Source of the DNA: a virus
IMG/VR virus record: IMGVR_UViG_3300015264_000002
Coordinates: 1,210 to 65,209 of that record
Length of the DNA: 64,000 nt
Strand: one strand, 5' to 3'
Shown here: positions 951 through 64,000 of the stretch, in pieces
How the letters are laid out: each line of letters begins with the position of its first letter
How positions within the stretch are numbered: the stretch's first letter is position 1
Program-made: the position numbers and the translations under genes
Notes under the pieces: model-generated
Told to the model about the DNA's origin: nothing
Databases searched by the model: none
What the model saw: only the letters and a program-made list of their open reading frames with translations

Positions 951-1032
951 CCGCAGGCGGGTCTGCGGGCGCTCGCAGGGGGCGCGTGATAGGGGAGACA
1001 CCGGAGCAGCAGCCGCGGGGAGCGGGGAGGGT

Positions 1033-1476
1033 GTGACGATGGGGTGGATGCGGACAGCGCGACGGGCGGCAGTGCTGGCGCTCGGCGCACTCGGGCTCAG
1101 CGCCGGCATGGTGCGTGCCGGCGCCTTCCCGGTGATCACGCAGCCGCCGGCCAACGGCGCGGCCGGGGATTACGAGATCATCAACGGCAGCTGTGCCGTG
1201 CCGCCGTGCGAGGGCGGATCGTTCTCGCTCATGGCCAGCGACAGCCCGGTGCTGCTAACCGATTGCACCGGTACGTGCCGGGTCACGCTGGTATGTCGGC
1301 CGCCCCACTTCCAGCACGATATCCTCGTGGCCGACTCGGGCACGCTCACCGACGCCGTCGGGGCGCCGGTGCCGATCCTGACGGCCTGCCCTTACTTGTT
1401 CCGGCGGATCACCATCTGCACGGCGGGCACCTGCAAGGTGCGCGCGCGCGTGCTCGAGATCCGGGGGAACTGGTAG
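1033..1476 (+). CDS. Secreted Cys-rich protein
   Basis: Signal-peptide-like N-terminus ([20 protein letters not shown]); multiple Cys; GGGGAG upstream. Confidence 0.7.
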
Positions 1477-1478
1477 CC

Positions 1479-8161: not shown

Positions 8162-8177
8162 CGGGGCAAGCAAGCTA

Positions 8178-8214
8178 GCCGGCCCGCGCCGCGCCCACGG
8201 CGGCGCGGGCCGGC
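8178..8214 (+). terminator. Perfect 15-bp GC hairpin after capsid gene
   Basis: GCCGGCCCGCGCCGC-7 nt-GCGGCGCGGGCCGGC; no U-tract, so it may be a stabiliser or attenuator. Confidence 0.55.
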
Positions 8215-8238
8215 GGTAGCAGGAAGGACACCCCCACC

Positions 8239-30061: not shown

Positions 30062-30297
30062 CGCGCCGGCGGCAGGCACCGGTCCCCCGGGATCGCGGGG
30101 TGCACGGTAGACGCGCGGGCCGTGGTCGCGGTGTCGCATGTGGCGTGGGCATGGCGGAGACGGGCACGCCAGTGTACCACCACCGCCCGCAGGTACCGTG
30201 TCGCCGCGCGTTGCCCCAGGGCGTGCGTCAGCGTCGCGCCGACGACTGCGCCCACCAGGACGCCGACCAGGAAGGGCCAGCTCTGCGGGCATGTCAT
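30058..30297 (-). CDS. Small membrane protein
   Basis: PFLVGVLVGAVVGA TM; ATGA overlap with parB stop. Confidence 0.5.
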   Translation of the reverse strand: MTCPQSWPFLVGVLVGAVVGATLTHALGQRAATRYLRAVVVHWRARLRHAHATCDTATTARASTVHPAIPGDRCLPPAR

Positions 30298-32267: not shown

Positions 32268-32905
32268 CGCTGCGGGTCCAGCTCAGCCAGCGCCGCCGCG
32301 CGCGCCCGGTTGAGCCGCACCATGGCCTCGTGGGTCCCCGCCGCCGCGTCGGGGTGCAGGCCCTTGGCCTGCTCCCGATACGCCTGCTCGACGTCGGCCA
32401 GCGTGATCGCGCGCGGGAACACCGCGCGCCAGTCGACGTCGTCGGGCGCGGGCAGTGCCAGGTAGCCGGTAAATGCCTGCTCGACCGTACCGACGCCCCA
32501 CCGCTCGATCCCGCGGAGCGCGGCGATGTGCGCGGCGATCGCCGCGACGTTGTCTGCCACGCGCCGCCAGCGATCGCAGGGCAGGCAGTACGGCCGGCCG
32601 CGCAGCTGGAAGTAGACGGCGACACCGGGGTCGGCGGGCGCGCGCCCGTCGCTGTACGGCAGCCCGTCGCGGCGGGTGGGGACGTTGGTCGACACGACCA
32701 GGCGCGTGGCGGCAAAGCGCCGCAGCTCCTCCTGCAGCCGCGTGATCGCGTCGGCCAGCGACAGCTCCTGCGTCCGGCGATAGGCCGTCCCGCCGGCCGT
32801 GATCGGGACGTGCACCTGCTTGCCGAAGGCCGCCACCTGGCGGTCGCCACGGTGCCGCGGCACCGTACGCGGCCACGTCAGCGGATAGGCGGCCGGGTCC
32901 GTCAC
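32264..32905 (-). CDS. Phage J-domain (DnaJ-like) protein
   Basis: YPL.WP...V+STN+P.R.DG.P....P.DPGVAVYF...CD.W..V.DN..AI...RG+ERWG and C-terminal HPD...LN.A. Confidence 0.85.
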   Translation of the reverse strand: MTDPAAYPLTWPRTVPRHRGDRQVAAFGKQVHVPITAGGTAYRRTQELSLADAITRLQEELRRFAATRLVVSTNVPTRRDGLPYSDGRAPADPGVAVYFQLRGRPYCLPCDRWRRVADNVAAIAAHIAALRGIERWGVGTVEQAFTGYLALPAPDDVDWRAVFPRAITLADVEQAYREQAKGLHPDAAAGTHEAMVRLNRARAAALAELDPQR

Positions 32906-35109: not shown

Positions 35110-35594
35110 AGGTGCCTCCAGGTGCGCCCGTGTCGCAGATCGCAGATCGTCGCCGGGGTCACGTGATGCTGCCGCGCCAGAACGCTCGTCCGCTCGGTCG
35201 AAGCGCGGATCGCCAGCGCCCGTGCGGTCGTTAGGCGGGCCGCGCCCCCGTCCTCGCCGCGTGCGGTGCGGCGGCGACCCTTCCGGGCCATGTCCTCGTT
35301 GTTGTCGGCCTTCGTCCCCGGGAACACGTGGTGTGGGTTGCAGCAGCCCGGGACGTCGCACGTGTGAAGTCCGCACATGCCCGCCGGCATCGGCAGACGG
35401 TGCCCCAGCTCCCAGGCAATCACGTGCGCGCGTGTGCACCAGCGCCGGCCATCCCGCGAGACGTAGAACAGCCCATAGCCGTCGCGGTCTGTCTGACCCA
35501 TCCAGGGCCAGCAGTCGTCGGGGGTACCGACGGCGACCTTGTCCCACAACCGGGCGAGGAAGTCCTGCGACATGAACCGGCCGCTAGCGGACAT
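35106..35594 (-). CDS. HNH endonuclease (intact) with C-terminal HTH
   Basis: CWPW.G..GYG...RAH..AW...LHTCD.P.CCNPHH...GT.ADNNED. Confidence 0.9.
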   Translation of the reverse strand: MSASGRFMSQDFLARLWDKVAVGTPDDCWPWMGQTDRDGYGLFYVSRDGRRWCTRAHVIAWELGHRLPMPAGMCGLHTCDVPGCCNPHHVFPGTKADNNEDMARKGRRRTARGEDGGAARLTTARALAIRASTERTSVLARQHHVTPATICDLRHGRTWRHL

Positions 35595-35603
35595 ACGGGT
35601 GTC

Positions 35604-35807
35604 TTACGCGCGTTGGCGCCGGCGGGCAAGCAGGTACTCCCGACACGCCGCCGTGATCAGGGCCCCCACTCGCACGCTGTCGTGCGCGGCCTGCTCGCGG
35701 AGACGCTGGCGGAGGGCTGGTCGCACGCGGACCAGCAGCCACGCCCACCCGCCGTACTGGCGTCGGGGCGGGTGACGGAAGGGGAACGCGTAGCGACGCA
35801 GCGTCAC
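35604..35807 (-). CDS. Small ribbon-helix-helix-like protein
   Basis: LLVRV.P.L.QRL.E.A....V...I..A..EYL. Confidence 0.45.
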   Translation of the reverse strand: MTLRRYAFPFRHPPRRQYGGWAWLLVRVRPALRQRLREQAAHDSVRVGALITAACREYLLARRRQRA

Positions 35808-36004
35808 CGGTGGCACTCGCGCGGATCGTGCCAGGTCGCCGGTGCTGCCCCGCACCGTACGCCGTGCACGAGCGCCGTCCCGTTGCCGAGGAACACCTGT
35901 AGATCCGCCGCGCCCGTCGTGTCCTCGCCCGCGACGCAGATGGCGGCAAAGCAGGCGCCGCTCGCATCGGCGTAGTGCACGATCCGACCGACGGTGAGCT
36001 TCAT
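35804..36004 (-). CDS. Conserved small phage protein (TVGRIVHY family)
   Basis: MKLTVGRIVHY...AAI...L.VF...W..P. Confidence 0.7.
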   Translation of the reverse strand: MKLTVGRIVHYADASGACFAAICVAGEDTTGAADLQVFLGNGTALVHGVRCGAAPATWHDPRECHR

Positions 36005-37284
36005 GATCCCCCCGCCTGGAGCGTCTCGAGCTTCCGCAGGCACCGCGCCTGTTGCCCGGCGTCGGGCGCGCGCGCACCTAGCAGCTGCCAAAACAGCCGC
36101 AGCTTCTCCGCCGGGTCGCCGGCCGTCGACCAGGCCACGCTGGCGTCGACCGTCGCCGGCGGCGGGGTGCGCAAGGTGTCGTCACCCGCGCCCATCGCGG
36201 GTGGGGTATCCCCGTCGCCGGCGACGGCAACCTGCACGCCGGTCAGCCGGCTGCGCGTGCGCGGGATCGGCGTGCGCTCGACCACCACGGCGGCCGCGCC
36301 ACAGCTGTCGATCGCCCAGCTTGTCAGCAGCGCCGTCGACGGCACACTGTCCGCCTCCTCCTCATGGTAGCGCGCGCGCACCCGCACCTCCGCCCCGGCG
36401 ATCCCCTGCCAGCGATCGCCGCCGGCGTCCAGCTGCTCGATCAACGACGGCCCCGGGTGCAGGTCGACGTCGACGGTCAGCAGCCGCCGCGCCGGCGTCG
36501 GGCGAAAGGTCACGACGGGCGGCTGTCCGGCGACGACGTCGGCCAGCAGGTAGCCCTTGACGTCGGGCTCGCCGTGATTCTGCGCTGTCGGGCTGCCAGC
36601 AAACCAGCCGCGGACGCCGACCTGCTGGAACTTGTGGATGTGCGAGCAGAGCGCGACGTCAACGCCGAGCTCGTCCAGGTCGTGCGGCGCTAGTTCGATC
36701 TCCCGCCCCAGCATGACCTCCCCGCCGCCCGTCACGCTGCCGCCGACGTTGCCATGGAACAGCAGGACCGTGGGCACGCCGCGCGCGCGCCAGTCCGCGG
36801 CGTCCAGCCGCCACGCCGTCAGCAGCGTGCGCAGGTGCGTCTCCATCTCGACCTTTTGGTCGGCCACCGCGCCGCCACTGCCCGCCCCGACCAACCACCG
36901 CTTGCTCGGATACGGCAGGCAGTAGACGCGCACGGGCCCGGCGGCCGTGTCGAGCTCGAGCACGTCGGGCTGGGTCACGGCGTGGATCGGATAGCGGCCC
37001 GCCAGCCGCCCGTATATCTCCAGGTCGCCCGGGTACTCGTGGTTGCCCTCGATCACGACCACGGGCGCGTGGGCGGCCATCATCTGCAGCGTGCGCGCGT
37101 TCGCGTTCCGCTCGGCCGGCTCCGCCTTGTGCGGCACCGTCGTGCCCGCCAGGTCGCCCCCGACTGTCCACAGGTGCACGCCCTGGCGCATGCCGTCGTC
37201 GGCAACGTAGCCAAGCACCAACAGCTGCGTCTCCCAGCGGGGGCCGACCGTCGTGTGCCAGTCGCCCGAGTGTCCAATCCTCAT
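36001..37284 (-). CDS. sbcD: SbcD/Mre11 metallophosphoesterase nuclease
   Basis: HSGDWH, GGDL, EGNHE, LFHG, SHIH motifs. Confidence 0.9.
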   Translation of the reverse strand: MRIGHSGDWHTTVGPRWETQLLVLGYVADDGMRQGVHLWTVGGDLAGTTVPHKAEPAERNANARTLQMMAAHAPVVVIEGNHEYPGDLEIYGRLAGRYPIHAVTQPDVLELDTAAGPVRVYCLPYPSKRWLVGAGSGGAVADQKVEMETHLRTLLTAWRLDAADWRARGVPTVLLFHGNVGGSVTGGGEVMLGREIELAPHDLDELGVDVALCSHIHKFQQVGVRGWFAGSPTAQNHGEPDVKGYLLADVVAGQPPVVTFRPTPARRLLTVDVDLHPGPSLIEQLDAGGDRWQGIAGAEVRVRARYHEEEADSVPSTALLTSWAIDSCGAAAVVVERTPIPRTRSRLTGVQVAVAGDGDTPPAMGAGDDTLRTPPPATVDASVAWSTAGDPAEKLRLFWQLLGARAPDAGQQARCLRKLETLQAGGS

Positions 37285-51093: not shown

Positions 51094-51746
51094 TGGCGGG
51101 CGCACCACGTAGCAGTGCACCACCGCGACGGCGCCGGCGACGTCGTCGGCCGCCACGACAGGCGGCGCCGGCGCAGCGCAATCGGCCCGTGGGCGAGCAC
51201 GCGCGCAAGCTGCAACGCCGCGTGCAGGCGCTCGACCTGTACCTGCACGGCCTGTCGTTCACCGGCGTGCACGACGCCCTGGCGTTGCAGGGCGTGCGCG
51301 TCGATCGCTCGACCGTCGTCCGCGACATTACCGATGCCCTGGGCGAGCTGGCGGAGCTCGACGTGCGCTACCGTGAGCAGGTGCGACAGGAGCTGGTGGA
51401 GAAGGCGCGCCTGCTGTGGAAATGGCTCGAGCCGCGCGCGTCGGTGGGCGATCCGCGGGCGATCCTGGCGGGCGAGCGCGTGCTGGGGCGGCTGCAGAAG
51501 CTGACGGGGGCGTACCCGCCGGGCCTGCCCGACGTGCCGGGGCTCGCGGACGTGGCCGGCCCGGCGCGCGTGGTGTCGGGCGACGTCCTGGTGTACTTCG
51601 AGGCGGACCTGTCGCACTGGCCGACGGCGGCCGCGCAGCAGGTGATCGAGACGACGGCGGTGCCGGCGGCCCCGCGGCCGGCGGCGGGGGGAGGGGGCTA
51701 TGCGGAAGCGGGATCAGGTGCGGCGGGCGCGGCGCAGTCGGCGTAG
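51093..51746 (+). CDS. terS: Terminase small subunit
   Basis: RRVQAL.L...G.S...+...L.....TV..D+..AL...R.EL.....LW......GDPRAI...R+....KL.G; upstream of terL. Confidence 0.7.
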   Translation: MAGAPRSSAPPRRRRRRRRPPRQAAPAQRNRPVGEHARKLQRRVQALDLYLHGLSFTGVHDALALQGVRVDRSTVVRDITDALGELAELDVRYREQVRQELVEKARLLWKWLEPRASVGDPRAILAGERVLGRLQKLTGAYPPGLPDVPGLADVAGPARVVSGDVLVYFEADLSHWPTAAAQQVIETTAVPAAPRPAAGGGGYAEAGSGAAGAAQSA

Positions 51747-51771
51747 GCGGTCACCGGGCCCCTGGGGCGGC

Positions 51772-51915
51772 GTGCGGCTGGTGCTGCCCCGTACCCAGGA
51801 CGCCGACGGCCGGGAGCTGGGGCCGGTGATCGTGGGCGACGGCGCCTGCGTCTACCTGCGCCAGGTGGTGGGGGAGGAGCTGGCCGCGCTGCTGGACGGG
51901 CTGGCCACCGGGTAG
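51772..51915 (+). CDS. Small ORF in same frame as terL, ending at TAG
   Basis: GTG 51772 to TAG 51913-51915. Confidence 0.4.
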   Translation: MRLVLPRTQDADGRELGPVIVGDGACVYLRQVVGEELAALLDGLATG

Positions 51916-51918
51916 CAG

Positions 51919-53412
51919 CTGGCCACCGCCCCGGTCGACGCCGGCGCCGGGCAGCGCGTCGTCCGCTTCCGCTTCCTGCCCAAGCAACGCGAGTTCATTG
52001 AGGACGCGCACGCCGAGCTGCTGTACAGCGGGGCGTTCGGCGCCGGCAAGTCGTACAGCATCTGCGCCAAGGCGATCGCGCTCGCCACCGTCTACCCCGG
52101 CACCACGATTGGCCTGTGCCGCAAGCGCCTGACCCAGCTGCGCAGCACGACCATGCGCACGTTTTTCGAGGAGGTGTGTCAGCCCGAGCTGATCCGGTGG
52201 TACCGCAAGAGCGAGCGCGTCGTCGCCCTCAAGTCCGGCCCGGCGCTGCGCCCCGGCGGCTGCGCGTGCCAGTCGCGGCTCGGCTGTCGCGCCTGCACGG
52301 CCTACGTGTTCTTTTTCGGCCTGACCAACGACCGCGGCCACTCGTTCAATATCCGCAGCCTCAACCTGGGCGCGTGCGGCGTGGACGAGGCAATCGAGCT
52401 GACGGAGAACGAGTGGCTGGAGATCCAGGGGCGGCTGCGGGAGCGGCACTGCGCGCTGCACCAGGTGTTTGGCGCGACCAACCCGGGCAGCCGCGGGCAC
52501 TGGCTGTACCAGCGCATGTGGATCAACGCCGACCCGCAGGTGCAGCATGTCGTGCAGACCTCCACGCTCGACAATCCGCACCTGCCGCCCAGCTACGTCG
52601 CGCTGATCAGCCGGTACAAGGGCCGGTATTACGAGCGGTACGTGCAGGGCAAGTGGGTCGGCTTCGACGGCCTCGTGTACGACGTGTACGACCCGCTGGT
52701 GCACGAGCTCACGTGGGAGCAGTTCGCAGCCCGCAAGGGCTGGGGCAACGGCTACCAGACGACCCCGGGCGTCTATGCGATCCCGCCCAAGTGGACGCGC
52801 CTCGGCGGCTGCGACTTCGGCTTTACCAACCCCTTCGTGTTCCAGTGGTGGGCCGAGTCGCCCGACGCGGAGTACTTCATGTACCGCGAGATTTACCACA
52901 CGCGGCGGCTGGTCGAAGATCACGCGCGCGACATTGTCCGGCTGTCGCGGGGCGAGCCGGCGCGGCTGAACAGCTGGGCGGATCACGATGCCGAGGACGC
53001 CGCGACGTTGCGCCGCTACGGCGTCAACACCATGCCCGCCAACAAGGACGTGGCCAACGGGATACAGACGGTCTACAACCTGCTGCGGCCCGACGACGCG
53101 ACCGGCCGCCCGCGCGCGTACTTCCTGCGCGACGCCCTGGTGGAGGAGGACCCGGCGCTGGCGGGCGACCAGGAGCGCCGGCACCCGGTACGCACCACGG
53201 AGGAGTACCAGGTGTACAAGTACCTGCCGGGGACGGAGACGCGCAGCGCGAAGGAGGAGCCGGCCAAGGTCGACGACCACGGCTGCGACACCACCCGGTA
53301 CGTGCTACACAGCCACCTGGTCGGCGGCGCTAACGCGGGGCTGCTGCGGTACATGGAGGCGGAGGCCAAGAAGCGGCTGGCCGAGCGCGCGCGGGCGCAG
53401 CGTGGCTACTGA
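51919..53412 (+). CDS. terL: Terminase large subunit (PBSX/Terminase_3-like); non-canonical start
   Basis: FLPKQ.EF, Walker A GAFGAGKS, GVDEA Walker B, GATNP, G.W.GF.G.VY, GCDFGF.NP, DH.CD.TRY; no ATG/GTG/TTG in frame between 51916 and Walker A. Confidence 0.9.
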   Translation: MATAPVDAGAGQRVVRFRFLPKQREFIEDAHAELLYSGAFGAGKSYSICAKAIALATVYPGTTIGLCRKRLTQLRSTTMRTFFEEVCQPELIRWYRKSERVVALKSGPALRPGGCACQSRLGCRACTAYVFFFGLTNDRGHSFNIRSLNLGACGVDEAIELTENEWLEIQGRLRERHCALHQVFGATNPGSRGHWLYQRMWINADPQVQHVVQTSTLDNPHLPPSYVALISRYKGRYYERYVQGKWVGFDGLVYDVYDPLVHELTWEQFAARKGWGNGYQTTPGVYAIPPKWTRLGGCDFGFTNPFVFQWWAESPDAEYFMYREIYHTRRLVEDHARDIVRLSRGEPARLNSWADHDAEDAATLRRYGVNTMPANKDVANGIQTVYNLLRPDDATGRPRAYFLRDALVEEDPALAGDQERRHPVRTTEEYQVYKYLPGTETRSAKEEPAKVDDHGCDTTRYVLHSHLVGGANAGLLRYMEAEAKKRLAERARAQRGY

Positions 53413-53725
53413 GTTCACGTTCCAGTGCACGATCTGCGGCCACGTGTACACCGTGGTGGCCAGCCACCTCGCGGCCTGCCCGCGGTGTGATCCCGGGCAC
53501 CAGGGCCCCGCGCGGCTGGCGCCGTTTTGGGGCGAGCTGCAGGTGGGGCTGCTGCGGGCGCTGCTGCACCTGCACGTCCCGTGCACGTACGCCGGTGTCC
53601 GCGGATCACCGCCGGCGGTGCCGTTCTTTGCCTTCGGGCTGTGCACGCTGCCGCAGGACGCGTCGCTGTCCGGGGCCGTGTGGACCAACCAGCTGCTGTG
53701 GCGCGGCGCCTGGTGGGCCGGGTGA
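53402..53725 (+). CDS. Zn-ribbon protein
   Basis: CTICG...CPRC. Confidence 0.55.
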   Translation: MATEFTFQCTICGHVYTVVASHLAACPRCDPGHQGPARLAPFWGELQVGLLRALLHLHVPCTYAGVRGSPPAVPFFAFGLCTLPQDASLSGAVWTNQLLWRGAWWAG

Positions 53726-54051
53726 GCGCCGACGGCGACGCGCCGCTGGGCCTATGCAACGCGATGGTCACCCGCACGGTGGACGGCGCCCTCTTCGTGC
53801 GCACCTTGATCCCCGCCGCCGACGGGACGCCCGTCCGCTGTGAGCAGGCGTCGATCGGCAGCCGCAGCGTGCGCGTGTACCGGGCCGGCGACGTGATCAT
53901 GGCCGCCCTGACCGCGGGCGACACGGGTGCGTGGCGCACGACGACGTACTGCCGCGCGCACCTGGACCTGCTCGACCACGGCTATCCGGTGCACGCCTAC
54001 GCGTACCTGCCGCCCGACCGCGGTTTGACACCTACCCCCAGGCAGGGCTAG
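53722..54051 (+). CDS. Hypothetical protein
   Basis: GTGA coupling. Confidence 0.5.
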   Translation: MSADGDAPLGLCNAMVTRTVDGALFVRTLIPAADGTPVRCEQASIGSRSVRVYRAGDVIMAALTAGDTGAWRTTTYCRAHLDLLDHGYPVHAYAYLPPDRGLTPTPRQG

Positions 54052-54399
54052 TCACGCGCCCCATGCGGCTGGGTGGTGTGGGCGGCTTCGTCGGTGGCTT
54101 CCTCGACCGCCTGCTGTTCGGCCTCGGCCGGCGCGGTGCCAACCAGCGCCAGCGCACCTGGCGCAGCGGCGGGGCGGAGCACCGGTGGCGGGCGTGCGAC
54201 GAGCGGCGCAAGAGCCGCCAGCGCGCGCAGCGGCGCGCGCACCGGGCCACCACGCGCGCCCTCAAGGCGCGCTGCGCGGGGTCGCGATGAGGGGGTGGAG
54301 CGTGACCGACCTCAAGATCATCTGGGGATACCTCGCTGGGTGTCTCTGTACCTACGTGCTCTGCGCGATCTTCCCACCGCCGTGGGGCCGCCGGCGCCC

Positions 54400-54909
54400 G
54401 TGAGCGAACCCGTGATTATCGGCCTGCCGGTCGTCGGTGCGCTCCGTGCCGTGCTGCGCGCGCCCGAGATGCAGGACGACGCGCCCCTGTACGTGCTTGA
54501 CGAGAACGCCGAGGCGCGGCCGGTCCTCGGGGCGCAGCTGGGCGTCCCCAGCGGCTGCGTGTACCTGTACGTGGGGCCGCCCGCGCCCGTCCAGGTCGAC
54601 ACAGCCGCGTGGCTGCACCAGCATAACGCCAACGTCGAGTACGTGGCGCGGGACGACACGCACGAGGGCCCCGCCGTAACGGTCACCGTGCGGGCCGGGC
54701 CGGCCGCACGGCGGTGCAGCGTCAAGGCGTCTGACCTGGACGCCGCGGTGCGGGTGCTGGCGCGCGAGGTGCGGGAGCAGGAGCGGGGGCAACGCGTGCT
54801 GCTGGAGCTGCGCCAGCTGCTGCGCGCGGGCGACGTCCCGGCGGCGCTGAACTTCCTGACGCTGGCGCTCGGGGAGGCGGAGGCGCCGCCCGGAGAGGCG
54901 GCGACATGA
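54400..54909 (+). CDS. Hypothetical protein
   Basis: GTGA and ATGA coupling on both sides. Confidence 0.55.
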   Translation: MSEPVIIGLPVVGALRAVLRAPEMQDDAPLYVLDENAEARPVLGAQLGVPSGCVYLYVGPPAPVQVDTAAWLHQHNANVEYVARDDTHEGPAVTVTVRAGPAARRCSVKASDLDAAVRVLAREVREQERGQRVLLELRQLLRAGDVPAALNFLTLALGEAEAPPGEAAT

Positions 54910-55244
54910 GGCGGCGGGTGCATCCGCTGGCGACCGTGCCCTGCTACCGCTGCGGCGCGGCCATGCTGTGGGCGACGACCAAGGCGGGCAAGCTGATGCC
55001 GATCGACGCGGCGCCGTTTCGGCGCGACGACTTGGTGCCCACGGGGCGCTGGCGGCTCGAGCTCGTCGGCGGGGTGCTGTACGTGCACCACGACGTCGCC
55101 GCGATCGACGCGCCCGACGTGTACACCTCGCACTTCGCCACCTGCCCCGGCTACCTGACGCCCGGGCAGATCACGCTGCTCGAGCCCGCCCTGCAGGCGC
55201 GCATTGCGGCGCACGCGGCGGCACAGCAGCAGGCCCGCGCATGA
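54906..55244 (+). CDS. Conserved phage Zn-binding protein
   Basis: C.RCGA.M.WA.T..GK.MPID...Y.SHFATCP. Confidence 0.75.
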   Translation: MRRRVHPLATVPCYRCGAAMLWATTKAGKLMPIDAAPFRRDDLVPTGRWRLELVGGVLYVHHDVAAIDAPDVYTSHFATCPGYLTPGQITLLEPALQARIAAHAAAQQQARA

Positions 55245-57902
55245 TCGTCAGCCCCGTGCTCGCCGCCGCGCTCGCCGCGCTGGTGCTCGCCGTGGCCGCC
55301 GCCGGGCTGCTGCGCCGCATGCTCATACAAGAACAGCGGATCGGCCGCCTACTCGGCATGCTCAAGACGGCCACCCAGGCACTGCATGCCCTCGGCTACC
55401 ACGCGGACCCGTTCCCCACCTGCACCGTCGGCCTGTGCACGGCGACGCGCGAGGAGCTGATACGGCCGTCGTGACGTCGCTGGCCGCCGTGCGCACCGAG
55501 CTGGCGCACTTCCTCGCCGCCGACGGGACGACCGACGCGCTGCTGCAGCAGGTCGCCGCCGGGGCGGTAGCCGATCGCGGGGCAGCGGCCGTGCACCTGA
55601 CCGAGCGGGCCAAGGCGGCCGACGCGATCGCGGACGGCCTGCACGCCCAGGCTCCTGACGACACGACCGCGGCGGCCATGGGGCTGCTGGCGTCCGCGCT
55701 GGCGCTGGCCTACGGGACGCTGGCCGTGCTGCTGGTGGAGCGGGGGGCTGGGACATGAGCCGCGAGGCGCCAATGCCGACGTGGAACCAGACCCCGGGAG
55801 AGGCACCCGAGCAGCGGGCCAAGCGCCTGCTGTACGCGCGCGTCGATCCCGTGCACGCGCCGTGCGCGCAGCTGCTGGGCGAAACCCTGGCGACGCTCGA
55901 CGGGGTGCAGGGTGAGCTGGCCGATCACCAGCGCGCCTGGAGCGAGAGCGCGGCCCGCTTGCAGACCGCGCTGGCCGTCGCCGGCGCGCCGGCGACCAAG
56001 GTGGTGCGCGACAGCTACGGCAGCCGTGACACCGTGCCGTGCAGCGATGCCGAGCGCGTCGCAGCCCTCGCAGCTGAGCGCGACGCCGCACGTCAGGCCG
56101 CGCTCGCCGCTACGGCCGACGCGGACGGGGTGCGCAAGGAGCTCGAGCAGGAACGCGCGCGGTCGTGGGAGGGCTGGGAGCACCACTTCTATGACGAGGA
56201 AGCGGCAGCGCGGAGTCTACTGCCGCGCCCGCCCCACCGGCGGCGCTGATGGCCTCGCGCCCTGCCTTCTGGTTCGCTGCGTGGGTCGCCGTCGGCCTGG
56301 CGGTCAACGCGATCTGCTACGCGGGCGCGCGCCGCTTCCGGGCCGAGCGGTGGGAGGCCCTGGTGGGCAGGCTGGCCGACATACCCCCGCCCGTCGCGGC
56401 GATCGCCTTGGCGGTGATCGTGCCCGCCATGGTGCTCAGCTGGCCGCTGTATCTGAGCGCGGCCCTGCACGCTGGTCTCGCCTTCCTGCGCCGGCGACGC
56501 TGATGCAGCGCGACCAACTGCACGGCCAGGCGCCCCCGCCCGTCCCCGGCGATCCGCCGCCGATCGCGGGCCGCGCCCGCGCGATCACCGCCGCGGCCGC
56601 ACAGGGCCACGACATGGCGACCGCCTTTGGCGCCGACGGCTTGGCCGCCTGCGCGCAGTGTCGCCGCACCGTCGGCCTGGACGACGTCGAGCAGCCGGTG
56701 GGGCCGGCGCTGACGGGCCGCTGCCCGGGCCGCAACCACCCGCACCGTCTGCAGCGGCGCCGCGCACGGACAGGGGAGTACGGGCAGCCGCTGACGTGCG
56801 TCGAGCCCGGGTGCGGGTTCACGATCAGCAACGCGCAGGCGGCGCAGAACCTGGGGCTCGAGATCCTGCCGGAGCCCGATGCCTGACGAGCAGCCGCCCG
56901 ACACCGACGTCGTCGGCGCCGCGATCGCCGTCGTGCTGTCCGCGCGCATGTCCTTCCCGGGCATCGACGGCGTCATGGTCAACCTGACCGCCTGGCAGCG
57001 GCTCGTGGGGACGCTGGTCGCCTGCGGATACATCCTGGCGCCCGCACCGCCGGTCGAGCAGCCGCCGTCCGTCCCGTTCCCCCACCTGTCCACGTGCCCC
57101 GCCTGCCGGCACGAGCGCCACCGCACCGCCTGCCCGGTGCCAACCTCGCGCTGGCGTCGGTGGCTGAGCGGGCTGCCGACGTGCTCATGCACGTATTGGG
57201 ATGCGCGCTGGTCGATCGGGCCCGCTTGACGTGCCACCCCTGCGGGAGGAGAGAGGGGGCTAGGCGCGCGCAACGCGGAGGGTGTGGGGGACGTGGGGGC
57301 GGACGGCGGACGTGAGGCGACGACGTTGGCGGACACGCTGCCAGCTGACGGTCAGATCGTCCCCGTGCGGACACGTACCGGTGATGTGCGGCTGTACCAG
57401 GTGCTCAAGGGCAACCGCTTCCGGCTGACGCTCGTGCCGCTGACGGAGCGACAGGAGCTCGAGGCGCGGGCGGAGCAGGACCGGCGCCACGCGTACGCCA
57501 GGTTCCTCCTGGCGATCAGCGTCGCCGGCGCGTACGGCGTGGCCCGCGATCGCGAGGAATACCCCGACCTGGTCGCGTACGCCGACGCGACGGTGGAGGC
57601 CAACCCGGTGACGCTGCGGTTGGACGAGGCCATGCAGCACCTGCGGCCGCGGATCGCCCCGCCCGACGTTACAGCGGTCAGCGGGCCCGTGGCGCGTGCG
57701 GTCGGCTGGCTGCTGGGAGAGCGGCGTGCCTGAGCCCGACGGCGATCGCGCGGCGGCCGACGACTACGGGCCGAGCCCCGTGGCCGCCGCGCTGGTGCTG
57801 CTGCGCGAGCACGACGCGCTCGATACCTGGGTCGATCAGTGGCGCGAGGCGCACCGGATTGGCTGGGCGCTCGGCCGCCGGCTAGGGCAAGGCCATGAGT
57901 AG
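55241..57902 (+). CDS. Run of about 8 coupled small hypothetical ORFs (55241-55474, 55471-55758, 55755-56249, 56249-56503, 56503-56886, 56879-57229, 57284-57733, 57726-57902)
   Basis: Chained ATGA/GTGA/TGATG overlaps; several TM helices or Cys motifs. Confidence 0.55.
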
Positions 57903-59236
57903 GGCGGAGATCAAGCTGGGCGGGCGGCCGGCTGCTGATCGACGGCGCCGAGGTCGGCCGCGTGCTCAGCGTCACCCTCGGGCACGACATGGCCGACGCC
58001 GTTGTCAAGTACAAGGCCCCCAGCGGTGCGGTGCACATCACCAGGTGCGCGGGGTTGCGGCCCCTCGACCTGGAAGCGGCGCAGTCGGACGGTATCCTGC
58101 CCCCGTGTGACCAGCCCGCGTGCAAGGGGCACGTGCGACATAGCGACGGCACGGTCAATCCGCTGTGCATCCACGATCCCGCGCGGCGGCGGTTCGACCC
58201 CGCGGAGCTCGCCGCTGACGTCGGCCGCGTGCTCTCCCAGGTCGTACCCCGTCCGTTCCTGGTGCCCACGCGTCGTGACCCCGTTGCGCGCGCCGCAGTC
58301 GACGGCATGCTCGGCGCCGGCGTAGCTCAGGCGGTAGAGCGCGTCACTCGTAATGACGAGGCCGCCGGTTCGAGTCCGGCCGCCGGCTCGCCGGTCGGGG
58401 AGGCGCTGCAGCTGCCGCGGCCGTTCCTGCCCAAGCTGCGACCCTGGGGCGGCCCGCGTCCTATTGGCCTCGACCCATGGCGAGCGGCCTCGTCCACCCC
58501 CTGGTACGTCATGGGCACCGGAGCGACGACGCACGCGGCGTGGGAGGACTCGTGGGAGGACTACTGCCGCAGGGCCCGCGGCTTCGTGCTCGAGCAGCTG
58601 GTCCAGTTCGTCAGCTGGGCGGGCCTGCCGGAGGTGTCCCCCCACACGCACCTCGTAATCACCCTGCGTCGTGGCGAGTGGACCCACGGGGTACAGCCGC
58701 ACAGCTACCTCGCGCAGTACGACGTCGACGTGTGCACCGGATCGCGGCCCGACGGCCCCGACCGCGAGGTCTACAGCTACGGCGAAGCGGTCACCGCGTT
58801 GCACGGGGCGGCCTGGCAGGCCGTCGCCGCGGCAATCGACCGCGCGGGCCGGTCCATTGGGCCGGCCGTCGCCGTATGGTCCGAGCACCCCATCGCGTTT
58901 GCTGACGAGGTGTGCAGCGAGCAGGGAATCACCTGGTCGCCTCCGTACGGTCGCTTCCGCTGCGTCACGTGCGACCACCTGCTGGACGAGCTCGAGCTGG
59001 CGTGCCACCCGCAGGGTAAGCCGCCGGCGCTGGACGGGACGCCGGCAGCGGCGGTCTCTGCGGCGGTCGACGTCAAGCTGACGATGGAGCAGCGGACGCG
59101 CGCCGAGGACGACGTCGCCACCGTGCTGCGCTGGCGCGACGAGCACCTGGCGCTGCTGTACCAGGCCCTGCGTCGGGGCAGCTGGACGGACGACCACGCG
59201 CGCCTGGTGCTCAAAAAGGTGGGCTGGTTGCTGTGA
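57895..59236 (+). CDS. Hypothetical ORF (apparent frameshift near 57917) whose frame stays open across the tRNA
   Basis: ATG 57895 frame joins 57962 frame by removing one G; open to 59236; may in reality be two genes. Confidence 0.45.
58316..58388 (+). tRNA. trnT: tRNA-Thr(CGT), no encoded CCA
   Basis: GCCGGCG acceptor / GCTC-GAGC D arm / CGTCA-CTCGTAA-TGACG anticodon arm / GCCGG-TTCGAGT-CCGGC T arm / CGCCGGC-T. Confidence 0.95.
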
Positions 59237-62200
59237 GCATGACCGCCGCCGAGCGCACCGCGGCCAAGGCGACGATGCGTACGCACGGCATCGTCAAGAT
59301 GGTGACCCACGACCAGGCCTGCGCCATCGTGGCGCGGGCCTGCACCTGTGCTCGACCACCCATAGAGATCGGCGGCGTCAGCTTCGGCAGTCACGCGCCC
59401 ACGTGCGCCAAGCTGGCGTCAGCCGAGTGCACTTGCACGCCCGACGTGATCGTGGCCGACGACGCATGATCGCTGTGGGCGACACCGTCTCCGTCCTGGT
59501 CCGCCGGCGCTTCGCGCCGGGGCTCGAGCTGATCGTGTGCATGATCGCGGACGACGTGCGGCCCGGCTACTACGCCGTGGCGCACGCCGAGCCCGTCGAC
59601 CTGCGGCAGTGGGTCGAGGACGGGCCGCACGCACACGTCGCGGACGCCGTGGCGGCGCTCGACCGCTTCACCGCCTGGCTGTACACGGGCATCGGCGCCC
59701 CGGGGGGCACGTGGCAGTCGCCGCACGTGTGACCGCCAAGGCCGTCGCCGGTGCGACGCCGCGCCGCACGCGGACGGGCAAAGCGCGCGACGTCGTGCAG
59801 TGCAACGTGCAGCTGCCGGTCGGCGTCGACCGCGCGCTCCGCTGCTACCTGGAGCGCACGGGCGCGGCGCCGTCCGCGTGGGTCGCCAACTTGATCCGGC
59901 AGGCGCTGTGGTCGACGGGGGAGCCCGCGGTGCGCCAGCTGCTCGCGGGGCACGCCTAGCCGTGGCCGACCAGCCCACCACCCCGCCGCCGGCGGCGCTG
60001 CCGCGCATCCGTCAGGGCCAGCCGTGGCTGCTTGCCTGGTTCGCACACGCGACGTCGGCGCGTCTCGCGGGCGTGATCGCCGAGGGGACGGTGCTCTCGG
60101 GCCAGAAGCTGGTCGCCAGCATGTACGTGCGGGCCGCTGCCAACGGCCAGCGGCCGCTCGAACGCGAGGCCCCGCTGTGGGCACAGCTGGTGGGCGAGGT
60201 TGGCCCGTGGGAGACGGATCTGCCGACCGTCTACGTGACGCAACCGTGGGTGTTCGTCGTCTTCGCCCAGGTCCACAACATCATCGCTGCCCTCGCCTAC
60301 CCGTCTGACATGCTGGCGCCGCAGCTGGCGCTGGTGGCGGAGATCTTCGCGCTGCGCGGCAAGCACGAGATGGAAGCGGAGTTCGCAAAGCCGGGCGACC
60401 GCGGCGCGGGCCTGTGGGTGCCGGGCGCCGTCACGGGACACTAAAGGGGGCACGCGGATGCGCGTCTACGTGGGCGGCTTTACGGGCGACGGCCTCGGCG
60501 GCGTGAAGGAATGGGAGACGTTCCTGGCCGAGCACCGGCGCGCGCCTGAGCCGCCGGGCGCCGTGGTGCAGATCGTCGTGCACCCCGACGACATGCCGGC
60601 GCTGCTGCGCGCGGTCGTCGGGTCCCGCAATGCGATCACTGGAGAGCGGTTTGAGGTGTCCCCGCCGGCCAGTGTACCCAGCGACGTGGGCCACTACATC
60701 GACCGGGTCAGCGGCCGGCTCATCCCGGTGGTCAAGTCCGCCACGGTGCCGCGGACGCACGCACCCGCGGCCTGGTTTGATCTCGGCACGGGCCACAGTC
60801 ATGCAGGCCAGCAGGGAGGTGGTGCGCAGGCAGGTAGCTAGTCGGGACGGGGCGCTGCCCGGTCGGAGGACACACCGGGCGGCGCACCCGCAAGGGGGCT
60901 GCTACTACTAAAAGCAGCCGACGCTAGTAGCAGGTTGGGAGTTGGGTGGCGGAGGACGGGGCGGCGGTGGCGACAATCCTGCAAGAGGTCCGGTGCACAC
61001 GCTGTGGTCAGGTCCGCGCGCGCACCGAGCGGTACGCGCAGCGGATCGACGCCGACGGCGGCGCGTGGCGTGCCCTCACGCGGTGCGTCGCCCTGTTCTG
61101 CACCGTCTGGTCGCGCGCCCTGGCGTGGGGCACCTGATCCCGTGCCCTGGCGCCCCACCCACGACCGGCCGTGCGCGACCTGCGGCGCGCTGTTCACACC
61201 GACCGGCCCGCGCAGCACCCGCTGCCCGACGCACGCGCCACGTGCTGTGCGCGCGGACGTGGTGGCGGCCGAGCACGCGGACACGTGGGGGCGCGCCTGG
61301 GCCGGCGTGGCGGCCGGGATCCGACTCGCCCGTCAGCTGGCGCGCCCCGAGGAGTCGGCCATGATCGCGTACGCCGACGAGCTCTACGCCGCCCCGTGGC
61401 TGGCCGTGGCCATGCAGGCGTGGCCGGTCGACCGCCTGGTGGCGCGGCTCGAGAATCCCGCGCTGCCGTACACCGCCGTGGCGGCCTGCGCCGAGCTCGA
61501 GCGCCGCGGGCTGGGCACCTGCGGCGGCCACCGCTTCACCTTCCACGCCCGAGAGGAGACCGCCGCATGACGACGGCACGACGGACCCCACCGACAGCAC
61601 GCACGCGCGTCGGCGTCGCCTTGCCCGACGGCGCGACCGTCGAGGCGATCGGCAAGCTGCCGCCCGGCCCACTGCTGGTGCGCGTCCCCACGTCCTGGCG
61701 CCCCGACCATATTGAGCAGCTGCTGGCCCACCTGGGCGCCCGCCTCGACCGCCAGCTGATCGCCATCCCCGCCGAGTTCGGGATCGTCGAGCGCAGCGCC
61801 GTCGCGCCGGGCGGCGGCCCCGAGAGCGCCGAGGTACCCACAGGCCCGCGCTGCACGCAGGGCGATACGACGGCCGACGCGCAGCACCGCTGGCAGGTCG
61901 ACGCGGCCGCCGGCGGCTTCACGTGCCGCGGCTGCGGCTGGACGCTGACCGGCCCCGGGGCACCCGGGTTGCTCAACGATCGCGGCTGGACGGTCGAGCC
62001 GGGTGCGGCGCTGTCGCCGGCCATGGAGGTGTGGAACGCGCTCGAATGGCTGGCCGAGCACGAAGGTGCGCTCAGCTACCGCGCCGGCCATGGGTGGACG
62101 GCGCGCGTGGGGCGCAAGGACGCGACGGCCGGCGGCCTGGTCAAGGCGGTCGCCCTGTGCGGGCAGCTGATCGCGGGGGCGCCCAATGGGTGAGCACCGG

Positions 62201-62792
62201 CACGCGCTGCCCTACAAGGTGCGCCCGGGGCCGACGGCCCCACCGCACGGACGCGTGCAACCGGCCCGTGGCGCCGCGCGGGCGGCGCAGCGACGCGCGC
62301 AGTGGCCCGCACGTCGACGCCGCCGGCGGGACAATCGTCGCATGCTCCGCCAGCGGCGGGTGTCGGCCCTCTGACATGCGCTACCAGCTGGCCCGCGTCG
62401 CCCGCCGCTGCGCCTGGGCCGAGGTGGGCGCGGAGCTGTGGGTGCGCGACCTAACGGCCAACCGCCCCGTGTTGCGGTCGTGGCGGGCGGACGGACTGCC
62501 GACCGGGCGCACCGCGATCGGCGTGTGCAGGAATACGACGGGGACCGAAGCGCACACCGTGGCCGTGCCGGCCTTCGGGTGGGACGGATACCCGCTGTGG
62601 GTCACGCGCGGCGACGAGCTCGGCCTGGTCAGCCACCTGCTGGGCGAGGACGGCAAGCCGCTAATCTTCGACAGCCGGAACTTCGAGCTGCTGCCCGAGT
62701 GGGCCGACGCCGTGCCGCTGTCGGTGCTCGTGCCCCCGCTCCGTCGGCCGGCCGTCCCGTGGCCGCACTGGCGTGCCGGGGTCGCCGCCTGA
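59233..62792 (+). CDS. Run of coupled small hypothetical ORFs (59233-59469, 59466-59732, 59729-59959 RHH-like, 59962-60444, 60458-60841, 60946-61137, 61134-61570, 61567-62193, 62376-62792)
   Basis: Coupled overlaps; typical codon use; several CxxC motifs. Confidence 0.55.
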
Positions 62793-63190
62793 CGCGGCCC
62801 TGCAGCAACCCGCGCTGCCGCCGGGTGATCCGGCGCCGCCCGAGCCAGCTGCGGCGCGCGCGCAATCCGACCTGCGGCGCCCCCTGCCGCGACCTCGTCC
62901 GCGGGCTGGTCACCACCACGCCGCGGCGCGCCGGCGGCCGCACGCTGCGGGACGGCTACGCCTACGTGAAGGTGCCCCCGGGCGACCCGCTGGCGAACAG
63001 CGCGGGGTACGCGCCCGAGCACAAGGTGGTGGCCCGCAGCGTGCTCGGCCGGGCGCTGGCAGCCGACGAGCGGGTGGTGCGGACGGCCTACCGGCGGGAC
63101 GACAACGCGCCCGAGACGCTGGTGGTGACGTCGCCGCGGGGCAGCTGCCCGCTGCTCGAGCTGGCCCGGCGCGAGCGCGCGGCCAGCTAG
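62789..63190 (+). CDS. Degenerate HNH-like protein (CTG start)
   Basis: C..P.C...TC...C; GY.YVK.P.G.P.AN..GY.PEHK+V....LGR.L...E; HH motif lost; CTGA overlap. Confidence 0.6.
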   Translation: MTRPCSNPRCRRVIRRRPSQLRRARNPTCGAPCRDLVRGLVTTTPRRAGGRTLRDGYAYVKVPPGDPLANSAGYAPEHKVVARSVLGRALAADERVVRTAYRRDDNAPETLVVTSPRGSCPLLELARRERAAS

Positions 63191-63595
63191 GGGCGGGGGC
63201 CGGTTCCGGTCGGCCCCCGCCGTCGCTGATCGTCGCCCCCGGAGCCGCGCACCGTCCACGCACAACCCCCACCAGGGAAGTTGGTCGGGCACGCGGTGCT
63301 TGCACAGTGGGCCACCCTGACGGGACCACCCCGCCAGATGCTGCCCGCCCGGGGACGGCTACAGGTAAAGTCGGTCGGCCCTGTCCGTGTCAAGACGGGG
63401 GGTTGGGGCCGCGTACAGGGATAAGTGGAGCAGCCGGCGTGGCGGGCCGCCCTTGTCAAGGGTGGCGGACAGAACTACAGGGAAATCGTGCCGGCGCGGC
63501 GGGCTGCGGCCTTGCAGCACCCGCACGCATCGCGGCACTAGACCGCCCGTGGTGGGGTGGTGTGGGGTGGTGGCGGTGGGGCGGGGCGGCCTGGC

Positions 63596-64000
63596 GTGAA
63601 CGTCAACCTGCCGGCCGTCACCCACCAGCCTGCGGTCGACGTGCTGCTGCGGTCTATGGCGGCGGTGCAGGCGTGGGATCGCGCGCACCCGCCGACGGCC
63701 GCGCCGCCGTCCCTGGTCAAACGCGCGGCCCGCCGGCTGCTCGGCGTGCGGCCGCTGGATGAGTGGTACGGCCCGTCGGTCCCGATCGACGTCGTGGCGC
63801 CGCAGCCGCAGCCGGTGCGGCAGTGGGATTACCCGGTCGCGGTCAACCGGAACTGGACACCGCGGGTCGAGGCGCCGATCGACTTCTGGACGCTGCGCCA
63901 CATTGCCGACGCCTGCACGATCGCGCGCGGCGCGATCGAGACGCGCAAATCGCAGCTGGACCGCTTCACCTGGACCGTGCAGCCGCGCGACCAGGACGTC
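63596..64000 (+). CDS. Portal protein, 3'-truncated
   Basis: W.GP..PI...AP....RQWDYPV..N....PR.E..I.F.TLR.IAD....AR.AIETRK.QL.RF.W.VQPR; not in ORF track because it has no stop in the window. Confidence 0.8.
   Translation, partial: MNVNLPAVTHQPAVDVLLRSMAAVQAWDRAHPPTAAPPSLVKRAARRLLGVRPLDEWYGPSVPIDVVAPQPQPVRQWDYPVAVNRNWTPRVEAPIDFWTLRHIADACTIARGAIETRKSQLDRFTWTVQPRDQDV

What the first reader, a model, noticed from the sequence alone, without database searches (positions are those of the whole stretch)
53402..63595. About 10 kb of coupled small ORFs and a tRNA separate terL from portal
Established: terL and portal are almost always adjacent. Here 10.2 kb containing about 25 short, co-oriented, translationally coupled genes (many Zn-finger or TM, one RHH), a tRNA and a structured intergenic element intervene. 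No gene has a recognisable enzyme family. This is a large accessory island in the packaging operon and the richest pool of unknown host-takeover or anti-defence candidates. Alternatively, the physical genome end lies here.
Basis: partly seen in the sequence, partly recalled or inferred. Interest (0 to 1): 0.65.

Follow-up and report, generated by a model that had tools for sequence, protein, structure and literature searches.

The report
Small-gene block between phage terminase and portal
In this high-GC phage, about 10 kb holding 26 small genes of unknown function and one tRNA really does separate the DNA-packaging enzyme gene from the portal gene, but the same layout is already described in other phages of Actinobacteria, so it is a new example and not a new kind of thing.

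Summary
Observation confirmed. The window is most of a circularly assembled 65.6-kb phage contig with 72% GC. TerL ends at 53412. The portal (848 aa, portal fused to MuF) starts at 63596 and wraps round the contig end. Between them lie 26 + strand ORFs of 38-241 aa; 13 of the 26 junctions overlap. There is also a genuine tRNA-Thr(CGU), two terminator-like GC hairpins and a 405-nt non-coding spacer before the portal.

Almost every ORF is an orphan. One matches a PHROG of unknown function. The last is an HNH-endonuclease relative that has lost its catalytic residues.

In the TerL lineage the portal nearly always follows directly (113 of 145 loci within 400 nt, one beyond 4 kb). In the portal lineage the two genes are usually about 3 kb apart, with a pectate-lyase-like gene between them. 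Polewnik, with terL and portal adjacent, is an exception. So this junction is plastic.

Published Microbacterium phages, all circularly permuted, show the same architecture without sequence homology: Quhwah has 17 ORFs there and Hendrix 40 ORFs with four tRNAs elsewhere in the genome.

Best reading: a lineage-specific accessory block, co-transcribed with terS-terL, while the head operon restarts at the portal. A physical end here could not be tested without reads. Interest is low to moderate.

This scan has noted smaller tRNA islands at this junction in other phages.

The parts
51916..53412 (+). terL (terminase large subunit); frame open from an in-frame TAG at 51913-51915; Walker A lies upstream of the first ATG (52153); possible ATT start at 51997
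53402..53725 (+). ORF1, 107 aa, two CxxC pairs (zinc-ribbon-like); overlaps the terL stop by 11 nt
   Evidence: (Zn_ribbon_8 E=0.0026, below cut-off)
53698..54051 (+). ORF2, 117 aa, orphan
54063..54290 (+). ORF3, 75 aa, very basic (pI 12)
54287..54403 (+). ORF4, 38 aa, hydrophobic (membrane-like)
54412..54909 (+). ORF5, 165 aa, orphan
54918..55244 (+). ORF6, 108 aa, phrog_5984 (unknown function); homologues in the non-structural arm of Gordonia phages
55241..55474 (+). ORF7, 77 aa, N-terminal membrane segment
55471..55758 (+). ORF8, 95 aa, C-terminal hydrophobic segment
55773..56249 (+). ORF9, 158 aa, orphan
56249..56503 (+). ORF10, 84 aa, membrane-like
56503..56886 (+). ORF11, 127 aa, two CxxC pairs
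56879..57229 (+). ORF12, 116 aa, Cys-rich
57284..57733 (+). ORF13, 149 aa, orphan
57726..57902 (+). ORF14, 58 aa
57962..58315 (+). ORF15, at least 118 codons, Cys/His-rich; has no stop codon before the tRNA, and the frame stays open to 59236
58316..58389 (+). tRNA-Thr (anticodon CGT), reads ACG, the commonest Thr codon of the phage
58511..59236 (+). ORF16, 241 aa; only its C-terminal 50-110 aa has a few distant relatives
59233..59469 (+). ORF17, 78 aa, six Cys
59466..59732 (+). ORF18, 88 aa
59729..59959 (+). ORF19, 76 aa, basic, possibly ribbon-helix-helix (unproven)
59962..60444 (+). ORF20, 160 aa, orphan
60458..60841 (+). ORF21, 127 aa; last gene of the tightly packed sub-block A
60852..60919 (+). 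two hairpins in the spacer (GC-rich 12-bp stem at 60852-60885, then a stem with an A/U-rich loop); terminator-like, no U tail
   Evidence: z = -3.0
60946..61137 (+). ORF22, 63 aa, two CxxC pairs; first gene of the loosely spaced sub-block B
61247..61570 (+). ORF23, 107 aa
61567..62193 (+). ORF24, 208 aa, orphan
62376..62792 (+). ORF25, 138 aa
62825..63190 (+). ORF26, 121 aa, HNH-endonuclease relative with the catalytic His/Asn/His positions replaced
63190..63223 (+). GC-rich hairpin (14 pairs, -29 kcal/mol) starting at the stop of ORF26; the same type follows the capsid gene at 8176-8216
63359..63481 (+). three TACAGG motifs, two preceded by GTCAAG at 14-20 nt; this combination occurs nowhere else in the window; promoter-like or protein-binding repeats
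63545..63590 (+). G-rich tract (four GGGG runs) just before the portal start
   Evidence: read directly
63596..64000 (+). portal gene, N-terminal 134 codons; the gene continues over the contig end
13..576 (+). the same portal gene, C-terminal MuF-like domain

Best explanation
The 10.2 kb is a real, lineage-specific block of small non-structural accessory genes plus a tRNA. It has accumulated at the terL|portal junction, which is permissive for insertions in this phage's head-module lineage. Shown: the gene order, the 26 ORFs, the tRNA, the hairpins and the spacer. Inferred: sub-block A (53402-60841, 21 ORFs plus the tRNA, nearly all overlapping or abutting) is read from the same long rightward transcript as the upstream non-structural genes and terS-terL, using translational coupling in place of individual ribosome-binding sites. 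On this reading the tRNA is cut out of that transcript and supplies the ACG decoder that the phage uses heavily. The hairpins at 60852-60919 attenuate transcription. Sub-block B (60946-63190, five ORFs with 32-182-nt spacers between them) ends at the hairpin at 63190-63223. The virion operon then restarts at the portal from signals in the 405-nt spacer. The products (zinc-ribbon-like, small membrane, basic DNA-binder-like proteins) most likely modulate the host or phage gene expression and are dispensable for virion assembly.
For: TerL and portal identities. Coding signal and coupling. tRNA. ACG is 53-60% of Thr codons. There is no strong intergenic hairpin between 45942 and 60852, then hairpins at 60852 and 63190 of the type that follows the capsid gene. 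The spacer at 60842-60945 folds with z = -3.0. The GTCAAG-N-TACAGG pair before the portal is unique (expected 0.01). The junction is plastic in the portal lineage, with a median terL-portal gap of about 3 kb (range 0-6 kb) and different cargo. Published analogues with 17-40 small ORFs between terL and portal exist in circularly permuted phages. The only island gene with phage homologues lies in the non-structural arm of Gordonia phages. GC and Thr codon use match the rest of the genome.
Against: No expression data exist. Promoters could not be recognised. The hairpins lack U tails, so their terminator role rests on analogy with high-GC bacteria. 24 of the 26 ORFs have no relatives, so their reality rests on codon-position GC alone. 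No function could be assigned: Pfam, PHROGs, PDB, the Atlas and two AF2 models (pLDDT 48-55) gave nothing. No close relative of the whole phage was found, so the history of the block cannot be traced.
Confidence: 0.6

Rival explanations
1. The small genes are not an insertion. The terS-terL pair is the displaced element: a foreign terminase cassette (PBSX/HVTV-like type) landed in the non-structural region and replaced an ancestral terL that sat next to the portal, so the 'island' is simply the old non-structural region.
For: The head module (portal, protease, capsid) is related to Brevundimonas phage Polewnik, but TerL is not. Most portal-lineage relatives carry a Polewnik-type TerL. terS-terL sit in a hairpin-free stretch of non-structural genes (methylase, glycosyltransferase-like). 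A degenerate HNH relative and a 405-nt non-coding gap lie where packaging genes would be expected.
Against: No remnant of a Polewnik-type terL was found anywhere in the genome. Two portal-lineage contigs (L250, L251) have a TerL distantly related to the window's (26%) directly next to the portal, so this pairing need not be recent. This rival concerns origin and is compatible with the best explanation for present function.
Confidence: 0.25
2. A physical genome end (cos, pac or a direct terminal repeat) lies inside the interval, most likely in the 405-nt spacer before the portal. The block would then be a terminal early region and not an internal island.
For: The spacer is the largest non-coding stretch in the region and carries unique tandem motifs and a G-rich tract. 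An HNH relative, a gene type often next to cos sites, abuts it. The nearest cultured TerL relatives (HCTV-1 group) have direct terminal repeats. A circular assembly with a 77-bp overlap cannot distinguish permuted from repeat-ended genomes.
Against: terS and terL lie 10-12 kb upstream of the spacer, whereas pac and cos sites usually lie in or next to terS (own knowledge). The HNH relative lacks its catalytic residues. Other TerL relatives are circularly permuted (HCTV-2) or are pac phages (80alpha is a distant hit; its pac status is own knowledge). The published phages with this architecture are all circularly permuted.
Confidence: 0.12
3. The arrangement is an assembly artefact: a chimera joining two phages within this interval.
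For: The contig comes from a metagenome-style assembly (77-bp identical ends). TerL and the head module have different nearest relatives.
Against: GC content and Thr codon use are uniform across the junctions. The contig closes into one circle with a single complete set of phage functions and no duplicated modules. The protein collection records the same TerL and ORF16 proteins on two contigs, of 65,643 and 66,412 bp. Mosaicism of this sort is normal in phages.
Confidence: 0.03
4. Most of the ORFs are not genes: the interval is decaying or non-coding DNA in which high GC keeps frames open.
For: 24 of the 26 ORFs have no family match. ORF15 has no stop codon of its own. In 72% GC DNA long open frames arise by chance (one search lists 147 ORFs in 14 kb).
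Against: Third-position GC of 0.85-1.0, with the second position lowest, follows one + strand frame after another with sharp switches at the predicted gene boundaries. Start and stop overlaps of the ATGA/GTGA type recur. Two ORFs do have family matches.
Confidence: 0.05

Closest known systems
Microbacterium phage cluster EC (e.g. Quhwah, MH271321) and related cluster EI (PMC7302621)
   Same: Siphovirus-type genome of about 53 kb and 69% GC. terS and terL are followed by 17 contiguous, co-oriented, tightly packed small ORFs of unknown function (6 kb), then a gap of about 240 nt, then the portal. There are further insertions between MuF and the protease, and glycosyltransferase genes are present; cluster EI also has ParB-like genes.
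   Different: No detectable sequence similarity of TerL, portal or any island protein. The window block is larger (26 ORFs, 10.2 kb) and contains a tRNA. The 18-bp intergenic motif of cluster EC is not present, and I found no repeated intergenic motif apart from the pair before the portal. Genome ends are unknown here.
Microbacterium phage Hendrix (MH183162), singleton (PMC7302621)
   Same: 40 ORFs, mostly of unknown function, lie between terL and the portal (15 kb). ParB-like genes sit just upstream of the terminase, and there are tRNAs in the genome. It is circularly permuted.
   Different: It is a 97.7-kb genome with no sequence similarity to the window. Its block includes recognisable enzymes (a DNA ligase).
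Portal-lineage relatives in IMG/VR and Brevundimonas phages Polewnik and Strzyga
   Same: Homologous portal-MuF, protease/scaffold and major capsid proteins (31-50% identity). In most metagenomic relatives terL and portal are also not adjacent.
   Different: Their intervening 2.5-6 kb holds an ORF of about 145 aa and a pectate-lyase-fold protein of 860-1000 aa, not small ORFs. In Polewnik the two genes are adjacent. Their TerL is of another type.
Arthrobacter phage cluster AL (e.g. Laroye; PMC5513430)
   Same: Canonical order of virion genes interrupted by blocks of mostly unknown genes, including five genes between terL and the portal.
   Different: The terL-portal block is much smaller and the largest insertions are elsewhere. 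Relatedness to the window was not tested.

Membership tests
Actinophage-type block of small ORFs between terL and portal (as in Microbacterium clusters EC, EI and Hendrix) | terL and portal co-oriented, with the canonical head gene order after the portal | tested here: met
   The order is portal-MuF, inserted genes, protease/scaffold (4355-6508), capsid (6626-8161), tape measure:
Actinophage-type block of small ORFs between terL and portal (as in Microbacterium clusters EC, EI and Hendrix) | many contiguous, co-oriented small ORFs, mostly of unknown function, fill the interval | tested here: met
   26 ORFs of 38-241 aa, all on the + strand, 24 without any family match:
Actinophage-type block of small ORFs between terL and portal (as in Microbacterium clusters EC, EI and Hendrix) | circularly permuted, headful-packaged genome | not testable with these tools
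   Only a circular assembly with a 77-bp overlap is available; there are no reads
Actinophage-type block of small ORFs between terL and portal (as in Microbacterium clusters EC, EI and Hendrix) | shared gene content with those clusters (common descent) | tested here: not met
   tblastn of TerL, the portal and all 26 island proteins against the Quhwah and Hendrix left arms gave no hit at E<0.01. The resemblance is therefore architectural only
HNH endonuclease (packaging-associated type) | profile match to HNH endonuclease families | tested here: met
   phrog_20891 at 1.8e-10 and three further HNH PHROGs; no Pfam hit
HNH endonuclease (packaging-associated type) | catalytic H-N-H residues of the beta-beta-alpha metal finger | tested here: not met
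   In the alignment with the intact homologue in L005 (VVHHKDGN..NN..NL......H...H), the window protein has VVRTAYRR..DN..TL......C...L
tRNA | cloverleaf covariance-model score above threshold and a readable anticodon | tested here: met
   Rfam RF00005 69.6 bits against a threshold of 29; ARAGORN calls Thr (CGT)
Ribbon-helix-helix regulator (ORF19, 59729-59959) | profile match or a confident beta-alpha-alpha fold | tested here: inconclusive
   No Pfam hit; phrog_5333 at E=0.0024; the AF2 model has pLDDT 54.7 and shows two to three helices after an unstructured basic N-terminus
Physical genome terminus (cos, pac or direct terminal repeat) | fixed read starts or a coverage step at a defined position | not testable with these tools
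   No reads are available. TerL relatives include both repeat-ended and permuted genomes

The most novel reading that the evidence does not exclude
The tRNA-Thr gene lies inside one uninterrupted 424-codon frame (57962-59236), and the upstream ORF15 has no stop codon of its own. If this is not an assembly error, cutting the tRNA out of the polycistronic RNA would leave a non-stop message for ORF15 and separate it from ORF16. tRNA maturation would then act as a switch that decides whether a fused ORF15-ORF16 protein, ORF16 alone, or a tagged and degraded ORF15 is made. Separately, the block could be the first-entering terminal region next to a packaging site in the portal-proximal spacer.
Probability: 0.08. 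Interest if true: 0.6.

Novelty: new member of a known kind. Interest (0 to 1): 0.3.

Why it matters
The finding adds an independent, non-homologous example to the small set of phages in which the terminase and portal genes are split by a long run of orphan genes. It also shows that in this portal/capsid lineage the junction is a recurrent cargo site: empty in Polewnik, a depolymerase-like gene in many metagenomic relatives, and 26 small genes here. That makes the junction a sensible place to look for accessory genes, and the block a defined set of candidates for ordinary screens in a laboratory host. It does not change what is known about packaging, and none of the genes has an assigned function yet.

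Tried and rejected
Megablast of 14 kb against phage records gave no match.

Exact-pattern searches for close relatives found nothing close. TerL and portal against IMG/VR gave only relatives of 46% identity or less. A 40-nt junction probe had no hit.

tblastn of all island proteins against about 330 fetched loci gave only one hit, the HNH relative in L005.

Pfam and PHROGs on all ORFs gave two informative hits. PDB sequence searches of three ORFs gave nothing credible. The ESM Atlas gave nothing. The exhaustive HMMER search of ORF16 gave six partial hits to its C-terminus only.

AF2 models of ORF19 and ORF5 had pLDDT 55 and 48, so no fold search was run.

The sigma-70 promoter scan found 0 sites, and its terminator matches (3 found, 2.1 expected) were at chance level. 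A k-mer search for a repeated intergenic motif found nothing. The fold of the whole 405-nt spacer was not significant, z = -1.0.

The tRNA flanks are not significantly structured, so there is no ornate RNA of the kind noted elsewhere in this scan.

TAG reassignment as an explanation of the in-frame TAG before TerL was rejected, because 26 genes end in TAG.

A frameshift to give ORF15 a stop was rejected, because the codon-position GC pattern favours the same frame right up to the tRNA.


Full report
**What the window is.** The genome held for this window is a single 65,643-bp contig whose first and last 77 bases are identical. It is therefore a circular assembly of 65,566 unique bases, and the window is bases 1210-65209 of it. 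GC is 70-78% throughout. A codon-position GC frame plot and a simple codon-model gene call give about 85 genes:
- a + strand virion module at 1-29.3 kb;
- a - strand block at 30.3-42.9 kb with ParB, SbcC-like and SbcD-like genes;
- a + strand run from 43.9 kb to the window end, which continues over the contig junction into the virion module.

**The two anchors.** The 419-aa ORF at 52153-53412 is a terminase large subunit. It scores on Pfam Terminase_3. Tblastn hits annotated TerLs of haloarchaeal siphoviruses (35%), Thermobifida phage P1312 and many Streptomyces phages. Homologues of 45-54% identity align from the Walker A region to the C-terminus.

Walker A lies upstream of the first ATG. The frame is open back to an in-frame TAG at 51913-51915. 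TAG is otherwise an ordinary stop here, ending 26 genes.

The ORF starting at 63596 runs off the contig end. On the circle it is 848 aa and ends at window 576. Its halves match Pfam Phage_portal positions 32-154 and 159-319, and the C-terminus matches Phage_Mu_F. It is 37-39% identical to the annotated portal of Brevundimonas phage Polewnik, whose protease/scaffold and capsid proteins are also homologous at 40-50%. TerL stop to portal start is 10,183 nt.

**What lies between.** Third-position GC of 0.85-1.0 moves from one + strand frame to the next with no - strand signal. I ORFs of 38-241 aa.
- Of the 26 junctions, counting the one with terL, 13 overlap and 7 more have gaps of 14 nt or less.
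- The longer gaps flank the tRNA or lie in the last 2.3 kb.
- Three ORFs carry two CxxC pairs, five carry one, and four have a strongly hydrophobic segment.
- The tRNA-Thr(CGT) at 58316-58389 is genuine (69.6 bits). It reads ACG, which makes up 53-60% of the phage's Thr codons.
- Pfam finds nothing above threshold in any ORF.
- PHROGs places 54918-55244 in phrog_5984, of unknown function. Its only phage homologues are in Gordonia phages, where the gene sits between the lysis cassette and RecE/RecT, that is, in the non-structural arm.
- PHROGs places the last ORF (62825-63190) in HNH endonuclease families. Aligned with an intact homologue near a related TerL (L005), its HH..N..H positions are replaced, so it is probably inactive.
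- ORF16 (241 aa) has only six partial relatives among 1.84 billion representative proteins.
- PDB, Atlas and single-sequence AlphaFold runs gave nothing usable.

**Punctuation of the interval.** Strong GC-rich hairpins without U tails occur in intergenic positions after the capsid gene (8176-8216) and at a few other gene ends. In the + strand run there is none between 45942 and 60852. Then one follows ORF21 (60852-60885) and one starts at the stop of ORF26 (63190-63223).

The 104-nt spacer after ORF21 is the only spacer that folds better than shuffles (z = -3.0, two hairpins).

The 405-nt gap before the portal is non-coding in all frames. As a whole it is not unusually structured (z = -1.0). 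It holds three TACAGG motifs, two of them preceded by GTCAAG at 14-20 nt. That combination occurs nowhere else in the window (expected 0.01). A G-rich tract lies next to the portal start.

I infer, without expression data, that terS-terL and sub-block A belong to one long non-structural transcription unit. On the same inference, sub-block B is a looser appendix, and the virion operon restarts at the portal.

**Is the separation unusual?** The answer depends on the lineage.
- TerL lineage: I took 145 non-redundant loci from IMG/VR, GTDB genomes and metagenomes that carry a TerL relative and at least 3 kb downstream. The next ORF of 330 aa or more starts within 400 nt in 113, within 2 kb in 135, and beyond 4 kb in one. 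Of 99 such ORFs sampled, 84 match portal families in Pfam. For this TerL type, 10 kb is an outlier.
- Portal lineage: 42 IMG/VR loci carry a portal relative together with a terL. The two genes are usually about 3 kb apart (range: adjacent to 6.1 kb). The interval holds an ORF of about 145 aa and a pectate-lyase-fold protein of 860-1000 aa. Polewnik itself has them adjacent.

The junction is therefore a variable cargo site in this head-module lineage. Its TerL partner varies as well. Most relatives have a Polewnik-type TerL, of which the window genome has no trace.

**Published precedent.** Jacobs-Sera et al. (PMC7302621) describe 17 contiguous ORFs between terL and portal in Microbacterium phage Quhwah (cluster EC). 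They report similar insertions in cluster EI and 40 ORFs in the singleton Hendrix, which also encodes four tRNAs. All of these genomes are circularly permuted. The GenBank records confirm the layouts. Arthrobacter cluster AL has a smaller version (PMC5513430). None of these shares detectable sequence with the window. The resemblance is architectural and probably convergent.

**Verdict.** The interpretation as an accessory block is reasonable, but the arrangement is a known, if uncommon, one. The claim that the block sits inside a 'packaging operon' is doubtful. The suggested roles (host takeover, anti-defence) remain guesses.

A physical end inside the interval cannot be excluded without reads. 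I give it about 0.12, because terS is 12 kb upstream of the only plausible site, because the HNH relative is degenerate, and because the published analogues are permuted. TerL relatives include both repeat-ended and permuted genomes, so the enzyme type does not settle it.

Misassembly is unlikely. Composition is uniform, the circle is single and complete, and the same proteins are recorded on two contigs.

**Unexplained.** The tRNA lies inside a frame that is open for 424 codons (57962-59236). The codon-position pattern supports that same frame on both sides of the tRNA, and ORF15 has no stop before it. A 9-nt repeat (CCGTTCCTG, encoding PRPFL in the same frame) lies on both sides, 168 nt apart. 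This could be a sequence error, a scar of tRNA capture within a gene, or a real overlap of a tRNA gene with coding sequence. I could not decide between these.

Noticed in passing
window 51700-52152: TerL's Walker A and the conserved LPKQR motif lie upstream of the first ATG (52153) and downstream of an in-frame TAG (51913-51915). There is no ATG, GTG or TTG between them. In the alignment with homologues, 5 of 16 start at a Met that aligns exactly with the ATT codon at 51997-51999, so an ATT (or CTG 51919) start, or a sequence error, is likely. TAG is not reassigned, since 26 genes end in TAG.
   Followed up: partly
window 57962-59236: The tRNA-Thr gene is embedded in a single frame that stays open for 424 codons. 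The upstream ORF has no stop of its own, and a 9-nt repeat (CCGTTCCTG) flanks the tRNA, with the two copies 168 nt apart.
   Followed up: partly
window 52247-52288 (TerL residues about 111-124 counted from 51916): TerL carries a 14-residue Cys-rich insertion (GGCACQSRLGCRAC) that is absent from all 16 aligned homologues.
   Followed up: no
L259:3748-6315, L287:4819-7452, L266:3563-6586 (IMG/VR relatives of the portal): In many metagenomic phages with a related portal, a pectate-lyase-fold protein of 860-1000 aa (PF12708) sits between terL and the portal. This is an odd place for a depolymerase- or tailspike-like gene.
   Followed up: partly
window 30294-37218, minus strand: The minus-strand block encodes a 621-aa ParB (ParB_N plus HTH_ParB), an SbcC-like protein (weak AAA_23 match) and an SbcD-like metallophosphoesterase. 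Together with the ParB-methylase on the + strand, this resembles the ParB-rich left ends of Microbacterium phages Hendrix and cluster EI.
   Followed up: no
window 582-3308: Three genes, one of them a collagen/NHL-repeat protein (1479-3308), are inserted between the portal-MuF gene and the protease. This is a second interruption of the head module, as in Quhwah, which has a gene of unknown function (gene 26) between MuF and the protease.
   Followed up: partly
genome ends (outside the window; contig bases 1-77 and 65567-65643): The contig ends are 77 bp of identical sequence, which is typical of a k-mer overlap from a circularised assembly graph. The portal gene spans this junction.
   Followed up: yes
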